The translations under genes and the position numbers were made by a program. A stretch of DNA of 64,000 nucleotides from Escherichia phage W22: sequence record PV159336; one strand, written 5' to 3'. How positions within the stretch are numbered: position 1 is the stretch's first letter; each line of letters starts with the position of its first letter. The notes beneath the pieces were generated by a model. The model was not told the DNA's origin, did not search any database, and saw only the letters and a program-made list of their open reading frames with translations. Positions 23,654 to 25,738 of the stretch are shown one piece after another.

Positions 23654-25738
23654 GTGGCAAGGAAACCTGTCAAACAATCTTTTGAAAACGTAGATATTGA
23701 AGTTAAAGCCCAACCTGGCAAACAAACACTAGCTATGGATCTTATGCCTGAAGTAATGATTTATGGTGGTGCGGCAGGTTGTGTTTCAGCAGAAACAGAA
23801 TACTTAACAAGAGACGGTTGGAAACAAATAAGTGAATATGATGGTGAGGATATTTACCAATACAATCCAAGAAATAAACGTCTTGAATTAGTTACACCAT
23901 CTTTTGTAGAATATGATGCTAAAGATAATCTGTATTGTATCACAAACGGAGTAGGTGTCTTCCAAGAATTAAGTATGGAACATCGCTTTGTTTTCTACAA
24001 GAAGAAAAAATCCAAAAAACATTTTGAAATTCTTGTTGGGGATCTTATTGCATTACAGCAAGCAGGACACCCATTACGAGGATATATTGAAAATCCTTTT
24101 GGTAAACGTGTTCCGTTTAACATTCAAGGTAAACCTAGCACATATCTAAAAATTCATGAGGTAATGACAAGTGATGATAAGAAATATTGCTTTGAAACTC
24201 CAAGCAGTTATGTCGTGTTTAGACGTGGCGATCACATCTTCGTTACTGGGAATAGCGGCAAAAGCCGTCTGCTACTTCTAAAGGCACTTAAATACGCATA
24301 TAAAGATCCACTGTTTGGTGGTATTCTTTTCCGTAAAAATACAACAGCTTTACGTAAATCTGGTGGTTTGTTTACTGAAGCTAAAAAACTTTATCTACCA
24401 TTAAAGCCTCACGTAAGAGAACAGGCTATGGAGATGGAGTTCAGAGCCACAAAAGGTGGTACACTTAAATTTGACCATCTTGAAAATGATAACGTAACGG
24501 CTGAAACTAACCATCAAGGTACACAGTATTCGATGGTAGGGTTTGACGAACTTACACATTTTACACAATATGAAATGCTATATCTGTTAGGGCGTATGCG
24601 TTCTGAATCAGAAACGTCTTTTATGCTGTGTACTTGTAACCCTGATGCTGATAGTTGGGTGTTGAAATGGGTACTTCCTTATTTGGATGAAGCTGGTTAT
24701 CCACGAGAAGATATGTGTGGCAAACAGCTATACTTTCTTATTGTGCAAGATGAACCAGTATTTGCTGAAACAGCAGAAGAGTTGAAAGAAAAGTATCCTG
24801 AAAACTGTTTTATGCAAAACCCAAACACAGGTGAAACAGTGGTTATTGAACCACAAACATTTGTGTTCATTGGTGGTACTATCTTTGATAACCCTGAACT
24901 AATAAGACTTAACCCTAAATACTTAGCTTCTTTGAAGGCTCAAACCGCCGTTAAGAGAGCACAGCTTTTAGATGGTTGTTGGTTTGCTCGTGCGCAAGAA
25001 GAGAGTTTCTTTAACAGAGAATGGTTACACGTTATCAAGTTTAAAGATTTACCAAACAATCTTAAATATATGCGAGCGTGGGATAAAGCAGTATCTGTTC
25101 CAACAGAATCTTATCGTTATCCTGACTACACAACATCTGTTAAAATGGCTAAAGACTCTGATGGAAATTATTACATTTTTGGTGATTATGATTATGATGC
25201 TCACGATGAAGGTAGTAAAATTTTTGGTAGATTTAGAAGACTACCAGGTGATCGAGATAATTTAATTCTAAACCAATGTAAAATTGATGGAGATGAAGTT
25301 ACAGTTGTATTGCCAAAAGATCCTTCTGGTGCTGGTTTGATTGAATATACAGAATCAGCTAAAAAACTAATTGCTGAAGGGTTTGTTGTTAAACCAGACG
25401 CTATGCCTGGTAACAAGAAAAAGTTACAACGCTTTATGCCATTTAGTAGTGCTTGTCAAAATGGTTTTGTTTATATTGTAGAAGAATCTTTCCCTAACAA
25501 AGAAACTCTTGATCATTTCTATAAAGAGATGGAGTCGTTTAATGGAGAAAGATCTACAGCAACATTAAAAGATGATATTCCAGATGCTGCTGCATCTTGC
25601 TTTAATACTTTGTCAAAAGAACAGATGTTTAAAGCAGTAGCAATACCTTCTGCAACAAATGCATTAACAGGGTATGGTAAGATGGGTGGAAGATCAAGAA
25701 ACTCTTTATCTTCTCCATACAGTATCCGAGGAAGATAA
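23654..25738 (+). CDS. terL: terminase large subunit interrupted by a mini-intein
   Basis: 694 aa; Walker B MVGFDELTHF, motif III CTCNP; Walker A split as GGAAG / intein / SGKS; GTG start after AGGAGGA RBS. Confidence 0.7.
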   Translation: MARKPVKQSFENVDIEVKAQPGKQTLAMDLMPEVMIYGGAAGCVSAETEYLTRDGWKQISEYDGEDIYQYNPRNKRLELVTPSFVEYDAKDNLYCITNGVGVFQELSMEHRFVFYKKKKSKKHFEILVGDLIALQQAGHPLRGYIENPFGKRVPFNIQGKPSTYLKIHEVMTSDDKKYCFETPSSYVVFRRGDHIFVTGNSGKSRLLLLKALKYAYKDPLFGGILFRKNTTALRKSGGLFTEAKKLYLPLKPHVREQAMEMEFRATKGGTLKFDHLENDNVTAETNHQGTQYSMVGFDELTHFTQYEMLYLLGRMRSESETSFMLCTCNPDADSWVLKWVLPYLDEAGYPREDMCGKQLYFLIVQDEPVFAETAEELKEKYPENCFMQNPNTGETVVIEPQTFVFIGGTIFDNPELIRLNPKYLASLKAQTAVKRAQLLDGCWFARAQEESFFNREWLHVIKFKDLPNNLKYMRAWDKAVSVPTESYRYPDYTTSVKMAKDSDGNYYIFGDYDYDAHDEGSKIFGRFRRLPGDRDNLILNQCKIDGDEVTVVLPKDPSGAGLIEYTESAKKLIAEGFVVKPDAMPGNKKKLQRFMPFSSACQNGFVYIVEESFPNKETLDHFYKEMESFNGERSTATLKDDIPDAAASCFNTLSKEQMFKAVAIPSATNALTGYGKMGGRSRNSLSSPYSIRGR
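23780..24253 (+). other. putative mini-intein (158 aa, class 1) in the terminase P-loop
   Basis: Begins with Cys (CVSAETEYLTRDG), ends ...DHIFVTGN followed by Ser; removal joins ...MIYGGAAG to SGKSRLLL, restoring GxxxxGKS. Confidence 0.6.

What the first reader, a model, noticed from the sequence alone, without database searches (positions are those of the whole stretch)
23780..24253. Mini-intein splitting the Walker A P-loop of the large terminase
The terminase ORF reads ...MIYGGAAG then a 158-aa insert starting with Cys (CVSAETEYLT) and ending ...HIFVTGN, followed by SGKSRLLLL. Deleting the insert regenerates a canonical GGAAGSGKS P-loop. The insert has class-1 intein hallmarks (Cys1, C-terminal Asn, Ser +1) and is too short for a homing endonuclease domain. 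Packaging would then depend on protein splicing.
Basis: seen in the sequence. Interest (0 to 1): 0.75.

Follow-up and report, generated by a model that had tools for sequence, protein, structure and literature searches.

The report
Mini-intein inside phage terminase ATP site
The DNA-packaging enzyme (large terminase) of this phi92-like E. coli phage is interrupted in its ATP-binding loop by a 158-residue self-splicing protein element (a mini-intein); this kind of insertion is well known, but this one is not annotated and has an unusual pair of catalytic cysteines.

Summary
The 694-aa terminase ORF (23654-25738, +) carries an in-frame 158-aa insert (23780-24253) between GGAAG and SGKS. Homologues without the insert read GGAAGSGKS without interruption. 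The insert gives a confident HINT-fold model (pLDDT 94). A profile of its family matches the solved AceL NrdHF intein (E 3e-11). Its dN/dS is as low as the extein's (0.06-0.08). It has no homing endonuclease, and about 133 phi92-like and phAPEC8-like phage genomes carry it. So it is a real, almost certainly active mini-intein, and terminase function must depend on splicing (inferred).

Inteins in terminase P-loops are common, so this is a new member of a known kind. The deposited annotations I inspected do not mark it, and the BASEL phage table counts 0 inteins for a phage that has it.

One correction to the "class 1" reading. The insert combines Cys1 with the catalytic centre typical of class 3 inteins: Cys at block F:4, Thr at G:5, Gly instead of the penultimate His. 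Its closest characterised relative is a proven class 3 intein. This combination is nearly invariant in a large, diverse clade (188 domains examined). Sequence cannot show which cysteine forms the first thioester.

The parts
23654..25738 (+). Large terminase (TerL) precursor ORF, 694 aa, 79.2 kDa, stop codon included
   Evidence: Same CDS length as annotated in phage EmilieFrey (2085 nt).
23654..23779 (+). N-extein, 42 aa, ending in the first half of Walker A (GGAAG, 23765-23779)
23780..24253 (+). Mini-intein, 158 aa, 18.4 kDa; HINT fold, no homing endonuclease
23780..23821 (+). Intein block A (CVSAETEYLTRDGW). Cys1, Gly13 and Trp14 are invariant in the family alignment.
23954..23995 (+). Intein block B (GVFQELSMEHRFVF): Ser65 = B:7, His68 = B:10 (invariant), Arg69 = B:11, Phe70 = B:12. 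Same numbering as S65/H68/R69/M70 of the AceL NrdHF intein.
24035..24061 (+). The single alpha-helix of the model (residues 86-94), inside the lineage-specific linker 77-125 that lies between the two splicing lobes
24179..24226 (+). Intein block F (KKYCFETPSSYVVFRR): Cys137 = F:4 (24188-24190), invariant in the family alignment; no His at F:13
24233..24253 (+). Intein block G (HIFVTGN): Thr156 = G:5, Gly157 = G:6 (in place of the usual penultimate His), Asn158 = G:7
24254..25735 (+). C-extein, 494 aa. It starts with the Ser+1 nucleophile and the second half of Walker A (SGKS, 24254-24265), followed by the rest of the ATPase and the RNaseH-like nuclease domain.

Best explanation
The segment is an active, cis-splicing mini-intein (HINT domain, no homing endonuclease) inserted inside the Walker A motif of the only large-terminase gene of a phi92-like coliphage. 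The 79-kDa precursor cannot form a P-loop. The intein folds, removes itself as an 18-kDa product and joins Gly42 to Ser201. This yields the 61-kDa terminase with an intact GAAGSGKS loop, so DNA packaging depends on protein splicing. Proposed chemistry (inferred): Cys1 forms the first thioester, because it is invariant in the clade. The N-extein acyl group then reaches the Ser+1 hydroxyl, with Cys137 (block F:4) taking part either as a second thioester station or as the activating residue next to both junctions. His68 and Ser65 strain the N-terminal scissile bond, and Thr156 holds His68 in place. Asn158 then cyclises without a penultimate His, possibly helped by Arg69 as in the AceL NrdHF intein. 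An O-to-N shift completes the peptide bond. I put about 45% on a covalent role for Cys137, about 45% on a non-covalent or redox role, and about 10% on Cys1 being dispensable (pure class 3 route). The element lost its endonuclease and is fixed and vertically inherited in the Stephanstirmvirinae. It persists because only a precise deletion would leave a working terminase.
For: Shown:
- Exact in-frame insert at 23780-24253 with Cys1, Asn158 and Ser+1.
- Insert-free homologues with a contiguous GGAAGSGKS, and homologues with 146- to 328-aa inserts at the same bond, all Cys...Gly-Asn|Ser.
- Invariant C1, G13, W14, H68, D132, K135, Y136, C137, G157, N158 and S+1 among family members that share only 24-35% identity.
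- The family profile hits PDB 6zgq (AceL NrdHF intein) at E 3e-11, and PolII and RecA inteins more weakly.
- AlphaFold model pLDDT 94.3, pTM 0.85. Foldseek top hits are 6zgq (TM about 0.7) followed by other inteins, bacterial intein-like domains and hedgehog HINT domains.
- Longer relatives carry LAGLIDADG_3 and Intein_splicing Pfam matches.
- dN/dS is 0.06-0.08 for the intein and 0.05-0.07 for the extein across three phage lineages, with dS > 1.2.
- In-silico splicing restores the full Terminase_6N match.
- There is one TerL place in each listed genome record, phi92 among them, and these phages are cultivated and plaque-forming.
- In 188 full-length clade domains: Cys1 188, His B:10 188, Asn G:7 188, Cys F:4 185, Gly G:6 182, Thr/Ser G:5 172.

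From the literature:
- Mycobacteriophage TerL inteins, including P-loop ones, splice efficiently in reporters, and the intein positions are incompatible with the TerL pentamer (PMC5050341).
- In AceL NrdHF, Cys F:4 is the essential nucleophile, Thr G:5 holds His B:10, introducing His at G:6 abolishes activity, and Arg B:11 helps Asn cyclisation (PMC7891396).
- The F:4 side chain lies 2.7 A from Cys1 in the Pab PolII intein (PMC8175363).
Against: There is no experimental evidence of splicing for this protein; none was found in the searchable literature. The single sequence matches no Pfam or NCBIfam intein model and no PDB sequence; recognition needs a family profile or a structure model. The penultimate His (G:6) and the block F His (F:13), which usually assist Asn cyclisation, are both absent. 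The order of the acyl transfers and the role of each cysteine are inferred only from conservation and from one homologue that has Ala, not Cys, at position 1.
Confidence: 0.88

Rival explanations
1. Ordinary class 1 mini-intein. Cys1 forms the linear thioester, which is attacked directly by Ser+1. Cys137 never carries the acyl group and only replaces the usual Asp at F:4 as a positioning or activating residue, or as a redox switch through a Cys1-Cys137 disulfide.
For: Cys1 is invariant in 188/188 clade domains. Block B has the class 1-like S/TxxH motif, and B:12 is an aliphatic or aromatic residue as in class 1, not Trp. In published surveys the class 3 triplet co-varies with the absence of an N-terminal nucleophile (PMC2807308), and class 3 inteins were operationally defined as lacking Cys1 (PMC7891396). 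Disulfides involving active-site cysteines are known to make splicing sensitive to the cell's oxidation state (PMC4031507).
Against: Cys at F:4 is conserved in 185/188 domains that are otherwise very divergent, together with Thr/Ser at G:5 and Gly at G:6. This is the constellation that in the closest characterised homologue performs the first nucleophilic attack. Standard class 1 inteins usually have Asp at F:4 (PMC2807308).
Confidence: 0.4
2. Class 3-type intein in disguise. Cys137 (F:4) attacks the Gly42-Cys1 peptide bond directly and forms the block F branched thioester, which is passed to Ser+1. Cys1 is not needed for chemistry.
For: The closest solved and biochemically characterised relative is the class 3 AceL NrdHF intein, by sequence profile (E 3e-11) and by fold (top Foldseek hit). 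The two share Ser B:7, His B:10, Arg B:11, Cys F:4, Pro four residues after that Cys, Thr-Gly-Asn at the C-terminus and Ser+1. A Ser/Thr +1 residue is typical of class 3 inteins (PMC2807308).
Against: Position 1 is Cys in all 188 clade domains examined, which is hard to explain if Cys1 is dispensable. The defining class 3 features 'no N-terminal nucleophile' and 'Trp at B:12' are not met.
Confidence: 0.1
3. Degenerate or domesticated insert. The segment no longer splices and stays in the mature terminase as an extra domain, or the gene is a pseudogene and packaging is done by another protein.
For: No endonuclease domain, no penultimate His, and no match of the single sequence to curated intein models. 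The element is fixed rather than sporadic within the subfamily.
Against: The insert separates GAAG from SGKS, so a P-loop cannot form around a 158-residue domain (established knowledge of Walker A geometry). All splice-junction residues are invariant over deep divergence. dN/dS is about 0.07. There is a single TerL homologue in each listed genome record, in phages that are propagated in the laboratory. Homologous terminases lacking the insert are otherwise collinear.
Confidence: 0.03

Closest known systems
AceL NrdHF intein (PDB 6zgq; Hoffmann et al. 2020, PMC7891396), a naturally split class 3 intein from a phage-like Antarctic lake contig
   Same: Best sequence-profile hit (E 3e-11) and best structural hit (Foldseek E 3e-7, TM about 0.7). 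Identical numbering of Ser65, His68 and Arg69. A hydrophobic non-Trp residue at position 70. Cys at F:4 followed four residues later by Pro. C-terminal Thr-Gly-Asn and Ser+1. No His at F:13 or G:6. Mini-size (146 vs 158 aa).
   Different: AceL NrdHF has Ala at position 1 (a proven class 3 route), is split into two genes with a GIY-YIG endonuclease gene between them, and sits in a ribonucleotide reductase subunit. The phi92 element has Cys1, is contiguous and sits in TerL. Identity is only about 18% in the structural alignment.
Mycobacteriophage and actinobacteriophage TerL inteins (Kelley et al. 2016, PMC5050341; Gosselin et al. 2025 preprint, 10.1101/2025.01.02.630785)
   Same: Inteins in the ATPase domain of the large terminase, including the Walker A loop. 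They were shown to splice in reporters and are argued to block assembly of the pentameric motor until they are removed. Mini and LAGLIDADG-bearing forms both occur.
   Different: Different terminase families in part (mostly Terminase_1 there, Terminase_6-like here). A different bond within the P-loop: the 'classic' site is between Lys and Thr/Ser (GK|T), whereas here it is three residues upstream (GAAG|SGKS). Actinobacterial hosts. Those inteins are either class 1 or canonical class 3 (Trp-Cys-Thr with no N-terminal nucleophile); the combination Cys1 + Cys F:4 is not described there.
Canonical class 3 inteins (MP-Be DnaB, Msm/Mch DnaB-1; Tori et al. 2010, PMC2807308; PMC7664689)
   Same: Cys at F:4, Thr at G:5, His at B:10, Ser/Thr at +1, a preference for P-loops of helicase- or terminase-type ATPases, and an association with phages.
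   Different: They lack a nucleophile at position 1, have Trp at B:12 and keep His at G:6. They are not detected by the sequence profile and rank only 27th-45th by fold.
Uncharacterised metagenomic clade recovered here (11,923 cluster representatives at E <= 1e-3)
   Same: The phi92 intein is a member. The signature is Cys1 ... [ST]xxH ... Cys(F:4) ... [TS]-Gly-Asn | Ser/Cys/Thr. 80 of 189 domains sit at the same Walker A bond, G|[STC]GK[ST], of various ATPases.
   Different: Most members are about 316 aa and carry an endonuclease-sized insert. Only 10 of 189 are minis like this one.

Membership tests
Intein (HINT superfamily, protein-splicing element) | HINT fold | tested here: met
   AlphaFold2 model pLDDT 94.3, pTM 0.85. 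All 23 Foldseek PDB matches with E <= 1e-3 are inteins, bacterial intein-like domains or the hedgehog autoprocessing domain.
Intein (HINT superfamily, protein-splicing element) | Precise in-frame insertion in a conserved host-protein motif, with insert-free alleles in homologues | tested here: met
   Alignment A1 and the insert census: 57 homologues have a contiguous GG[AS][AS]G[ST]GK[ST], and 36 have inserts at exactly this bond.
Intein (HINT superfamily, protein-splicing element) | C-terminal Asn (G:7) followed by a Ser/Thr/Cys +1 nucleophile | tested here: met
   Asn158 and Ser+1. Asn is present in 188/188 clade domains, and +1 is S/C/T in 189/189.
Intein (HINT superfamily, protein-splicing element) | Block B [T/S]xxH | tested here: met
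   Ser65-x-x-His68. His is invariant; B:7 is S or T in 179/188 domains.
Intein (HINT superfamily, protein-splicing element) | Penultimate His (G:6) and block F His (F:13); common but not obligatory | tested here: not met
   Gly157 at G:6 (Gly in 182/188 clade domains) and no His in block F. The same absence is seen in the active AceL NrdHF intein.
Intein (HINT superfamily, protein-splicing element) | Actual excision and extein ligation | not testable with these tools
   Needs expression and SDS-PAGE or mass spectrometry. Predicted products are 60.8 kDa and 18.4 kDa from a 79.2-kDa precursor.
Class 1 intein | Cys/Ser/Thr at position 1 that forms the linear (thio)ester | tested here: inconclusive
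   Cys1 is present and invariant. Whether it forms the first thioester cannot be tested here.
Class 3 intein | No nucleophile at position 1 | tested here: not met
   Cys1; Cys in 188/188 clade domains.
Class 3 intein | Trp at B:12 | tested here: not met
   Phe70. The clade has V/M/I/F/L, and Trp in only 2/188 domains. AceL NrdHF also deviates here (Met).
Class 3 intein | Cys at F:4 and Thr at G:5 | tested here: met
   Cys137 and Thr156. Cys is present in 185/188 and Thr/Ser in 172/188 clade domains.
Class 3 intein | Block F branched thioester intermediate | not testable with these tools
   Requires mutant trapping and thiol-sensitivity assays.
Mini-intein (no homing endonuclease) | Splicing domain only; no LAGLIDADG/HNH/GIY-YIG domain in frame, nested or on the other strand | tested here: met
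   158 aa. No Pfam hit. Single-domain model with one short helix. The only other ORF of 50 aa or more inside the insert, on either strand, is a 53-aa ORF in another + frame at 23988-24149. Longer relatives do have LAGLIDADG_3 matches.
Large terminase, Terminase_6 type | N-terminal Walker A/B ATPase plus C-terminal RNaseH-like nuclease | tested here: met
   PF03237 E 8e-19 over profile positions 1-213 after in-silico splicing; PF17289 E 4e-4, just below its gathering score. 99.9% identical to phi92 gp119, which is annotated as terminase large subunit. Portal gene immediately downstream.

The most novel reading that the evidence does not exclude
The phi92 TerL intein represents a very large, uncharacterised intein clade that needs both cysteines. 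It would splice through an obligatory thioester relay (Cys1 -> Cys F:4 -> Ser+1), which would be a fourth mechanistic variant between class 1 and class 3. Alternatively, the clade is the 'pre-adapted' ancestral state from which Ala1 class 3 inteins of the AceL NrdHF type arose simply by losing Cys1. The clade prefers one bond of the Walker A loop (G|SGKS) across many unrelated ATPases. Its member in a laboratory coliphage would allow this to be tested in vivo, including possible redox control of packaging through a Cys1-Cys137 disulfide.
Probability: 0.3. Interest if true: 0.65.

Novelty: new member of a known kind. Interest (0 to 1): 0.4.

Why it matters
Practical value: about 130 sequenced phi92-like and phAPEC8-like phages, several of them phage-therapy candidates or BASEL reference phages, encode a terminase that is inactive until it splices. 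The deposited records I inspected do not mark the intein, and the comparative annotation of the BASEL collection missed it. TerL-based phylogenies, size estimates and structural modelling of these terminases should use the 536-aa spliced form.

Scientific value: this is a native intein in an essential gene of a lytic phage that grows on E. coli K-12. It offers a tractable system for asking whether splicing rate or redox state gates DNA packaging. It could also show how an intein that has both Cys1 and the class 3-type Cys F:4 / Thr G:5 / Gly G:6 centre routes its acyl transfers, which bears on how class 3 splicing evolved.

Tried and rejected
1. Single-sequence searches of the insert against Pfam, NCBIfam and PDB sequences found no intein. 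The best PDB hit was a WW domain of Prp40 (E 0.048, around 'GWK...Y.YNP'). I rejected it as a chance beta-hairpin resemblance once the family profile and the fold search both gave inteins.
2. The word-indexed protein search with the insert alone returned only five fragments of the same terminases and added nothing. The exhaustive profile search was needed to see the clade.
3. I considered that the linker 77-125, with its helix 'VGDLIALQQ', is a remnant of the first LAGLIDADG helix, because MAFFT placed it under 'EGELRLQVAVMADG' of the long relatives. BLASTP aligns only the N lobe (1-76, E 1e-12) and the C lobe (126-159, E 2e-6) and not the linker, so this idea is unsupported.
4. Foreign origin judged from base composition: the intein region is 33-36% GC against 36-40% for the rest of the gene. 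This is too small a difference to interpret.
5. A second intein of this family, or another terminase, elsewhere in the window: none. The ten largest ORFs have no intein or endonuclease domains.
6. Two papers were not held in the library: Tori & Perler 2011 on the definition of class 3, and Nicastri et al. 2013 on an internal disulfide switch. I make no claim from them.
7. Model coordinates are not returned by the tool, so Cys1-Cys137 distances could not be measured. Their proximity is inferred from homologous structures described in the literature.
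Full report
**1. Where the window comes from and what the gene is**

The 694-aa product of the ORF at 23654..25738 (+ strand, GTG start) is 99.9% identical to the large terminase of Escherichia phage phi92 (gp119) and of dozens of Justusliebigvirus isolates. It has Pfam Terminase_6N and Terminase_6C matches. The spanin genes lie upstream and the portal gene directly downstream. Each listed genome record, phi92 among them, holds a single matching place, so this is the phage's only large terminase.

**2. The observation**

The sequence reads ...MIYGGAAG | CVSAETEYLT...HIFVTGN | SGKSRLLLL. Cys1 is at 23780-23782, Asn158 at 24251-24253 and Ser+1 at 24254-24256.

**3. Is it an insertion?**

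- Among the 120 best homologues from a 5.8-billion-protein database, 57 have no residue between GG[AS][AS]G and [ST]GK[ST].
- 36 carry an insert at precisely that bond, in size classes of 146, 158/159, 246 and 301-328 aa. All start with Cys and end with Gly-Asn, and the next residue is the Ser of SGK[ST].
- Insert-free relatives include proteins 62-63% identical to the phi92 extein (P0019-P0021) and the terminase homologue (named 'hypothetical protein') of Vibrio phage 355E48.1. Vibrio phage PWH3a-P1 has a 146-aa insert at the same site.
- Removing the insert in silico gives a 536-aa protein. Its Terminase_6N match now starts at profile position 1 and scores higher (68.6 vs 61.7 bits), and Terminase_3 rises above its gathering score.
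- The joined sequence GAAGSGKS is a canonical Walker A motif (GxxxxGK[ST]).

**4. Is the insert an intein?**

The single sequence matches no Pfam, NCBIfam or PDB sequence. This probably explains why it has not been annotated. Three other lines of evidence are clear.

- A 24-member alignment of the inserts has invariant C1, G13, W14, H68, D132, K135, Y136, C137, G157, N158 and S+1, although the sequences are only 24-35% identical between size classes.
- A profile of that alignment hits the solved AceL NrdHF intein (PDB 6zgq) at E 3e-11. It hits PolII and RecA inteins more weakly.
- AlphaFold2 with this alignment gives a confident all-beta model with one helix (pLDDT 94.3, pTM 0.85). Foldseek against the PDB returns 6zgq first (E 3e-7, TM about 0.7). 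After that come bacterial intein-like domains, Prp8, DnaB, DnaE, RecA and gp41-1 inteins, and the hedgehog autoprocessing domain.

Four of the long-insert relatives match LAGLIDADG_3 and two match Intein_splicing. The family therefore contains full-length inteins with a homing endonuclease, and the phi92 form is a mini-intein. Inside the insert, the only other ORF of 50 aa or more on either strand is a 53-aa ORF in another + frame.

**5. Is it maintained by selection?**

I compared the window with phAPEC8 and with Klebsiella phage phi1_175008. dN/dS is 0.06-0.08 for the intein and 0.05-0.07 for the extein, with dS above 1.2. tblastn of the intein finds it full-length in 133 phage records. Of these, 55 are at least 99% identical (phi92-like) and 77 are 80-90% identical (phAPEC8-like). 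These numbers match those of the terminase itself. The element is therefore fixed and vertically inherited in the Stephanstirmvirinae, not sporadic within the subfamily. It is sporadic at the deeper level of the terminase family.

**6. Mechanism**

Shown:
- the split P-loop;
- the HINT fold;
- invariant junction residues;
- purifying selection;
- a single terminase gene in cultivable phages.

Inferred: the 79.2-kDa precursor splices to a 60.8-kDa terminase plus an 18.4-kDa intein, and packaging depends on this. The inference agrees with experiments on mycobacteriophage TerL inteins. Those splice efficiently in reporters and occupy positions incompatible with the terminase pentamer (PMC5050341).

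**7. A refinement of 'class 1'**

Using standard block numbering, the intein has these residues:

| Position | Residue |
|---|---|
| B:7 | Ser65 |
| B:10 | His68 |
| B:11 | Arg69 |
| B:12 | Phe70 |
| F:4 | Cys137 |
| G:5 | Thr156 |
| G:6 | Gly157 |
| G:7 | Asn158 |

- Standard class 1 inteins usually have Asp at F:4. Cys at F:4 together with Thr at G:5 is the class 3 signature. In published surveys that signature co-varies with the absence of an N-terminal nucleophile (PMC2807308).
- AceL NrdHF was shown by mutagenesis and a crystal structure to be a class 3 intein. It has S65, H68, R69, M70, C124 (F:4), T144-G145-N146 and Ser+1, and no His at F:13 or G:6.
- In AceL NrdHF, C124A/S abolishes all activity, T144A slows splicing tenfold, G145H abolishes activity, and R69 helps the C-terminal step (PMC7891396).
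- The phi92 intein has the same constellation. Even the residue numbers in the N-terminal lobe are the same. The difference is Cys where AceL NrdHF has Ala1.

**8. The clade**

An exhaustive profile search of 1.84 billion cluster representatives found 11,923 proteins at E <= 1e-3 and 3,195 at E <= 1e-10. I re-aligned the best 148 locally, which gave 188 full-length domains with these counts:

| Feature | Count |
|---|---|
| Cys1 | 188/188 |
| His B:10 | 188/188 |
| Asn G:7 | 188/188 |
| Cys F:4 | 185/188 |
| Gly G:6 | 182/188 |
| Thr/Ser G:5 | 172/188 |
| Trp B:12 | 2/188 |

- The +1 residue is Ser in 114 domains, Cys in 49 and Thr in 26 (189 domains).
- The median length is 316 aa, and only 10 domains are minis.
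- 80 of 189 domains sit at the same Walker A bond, G|[STC]GK[ST], in diverse ATPases.

Both cysteines are therefore under strong constraint across a large and divergent clade. By homology, the F:4 side chain lies next to both Cys1 and the scissile bond. It is 2.7 A from Cys1 in the Pab PolII intein (PMC8175363), and a modelled 3.0 A from the scissile carbonyl in AceL NrdHF.

The most likely chemistry is an N-S shift at Cys1, with Cys137 acting either as a second thioester station or as the activating or redox-sensing neighbour. A pure class 3 route with a dispensable Cys1 seems least likely, given 188/188 conservation. None of this can be settled without mutants.

**9. Comparison with what is known, and novelty**

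- Terminases are the most common intein hosts in phages, and P-loops are a classic intein site (PMC4760082; PMC5050341). The 2025 actinobacteriophage survey counts 293 TerL inteins. The kind is therefore well known.
- What differs here is the bond within Walker A. It lies three residues upstream of the 'classic' GK|T site. The Cys1 + Cys F:4 + Thr-Gly-Asn signature also differs.
- I found no paper that links an intein to phi92, phAPEC8 or their genera.
- The three GenBank records inspected (EmilieFrey, KMB37, phAPEC8), and the product names listed for the other hits, call the gene 'terminase large subunit', 'hypothetical protein' or 'large terminase with endonuclease'.
- The BASEL collection's table counts 0 inteins for EmilieFrey, 1 for JohannJBalmer and 2 for PaulScherrer. 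All three carry this identical insert. A comparative approach cannot see a fixed element.
- I could not check InterPro, InBase or CDD, so prior database recognition is not excluded.

**10. Verdict**

The element is a new, unannotated member of a known kind. Its one uncommon feature is the hybrid class 1 / class 3 catalytic signature, shared by a large uncharacterised clade. That feature could be tested directly in an E. coli phage.

Noticed in passing
window 18974-21854: Dense array of 16 tRNA genes on the + strand about 2 kb upstream of the terminase. It includes three tRNA-Met(CAT), two tRNA-Leu and two tRNA-Ser.
   Followed up: no
window 22979-23410 and 23316-23645: Two overlapping + strand ORFs directly upstream of TerL. 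They correspond to the i-spanin and o-spanin annotated in phage EmilieFrey. The lysis genes therefore abut the packaging genes.
   Followed up: partly
window 16442-18223: A 594-aa ORF with a strong nicotinate phosphoribosyltransferase (NAPRTase) family match (E 3e-37). This looks like a phage-encoded NAD-salvage enzyme.
   Followed up: no
window 44885-47062: A 726-aa ORF matching 'non-contractile tail sheath protein' TIM-barrel and N-terminal domains (E 1e-81 and 5e-21), plus an N-terminal Calx-beta domain. This is curious for a phi92-like phage, a group recorded as myoviruses in the BASEL S5 table.
   Followed up: no
BASEL S5 table (PMC8594841, supplement file 5); phages PaulScherrer (MZ501100) and JohannJBalmer (MZ501084): The table lists 2 and 1 inteins and 1 intron each for these phi92-like phages, and 0 for EmilieFrey. 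Some isolates therefore carry additional, variable inteins in other genes. No other member of this intein family is present in the window.
   Followed up: partly
P0065 (Vibrio phage 1.063.O._10N.261.45.C7 'terminase-like family protein', 483 aa), alignment A1: The annotated protein starts 'MG|SGKSRLL', exactly at the intein insertion bond, and lacks the whole N-extein. This could be a mis-called start, or a fractured terminase gene or split intein at this site.
   Followed up: no
Phage records such as MG065645.1 'Campylobacter phage A145' (146,364 bp): Five records labelled as Campylobacter jejuni phages match the intein; the one listed (A145) carries one 100% identical to the E. coli phi92-type and has the same genome size. 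This suggests mislabelled hosts or contaminating coliphages.
   Followed up: no
Corynebacterium phage Lederberg (NC_048790.1, 42629-42850), Pseudomonas phage PS119XW, Bacillus phage JBP901: The N-terminal 70 residues of the intein match inserts in RtcB-type tRNA/RNA ligase genes of unrelated phages at 33-37% identity. The same intein clade therefore occupies other phage genes.
   Followed up: no
window 23780-24253 (intein residues 88-157 vs residues 33-98 of a long relative): A weak BLASTP match (E 0.043) between the C-terminal lobe of the phi92 intein and the N-terminal lobe of a relative. This fits the known internal pseudo-two-fold symmetry of the HINT fold.
   Followed up: no
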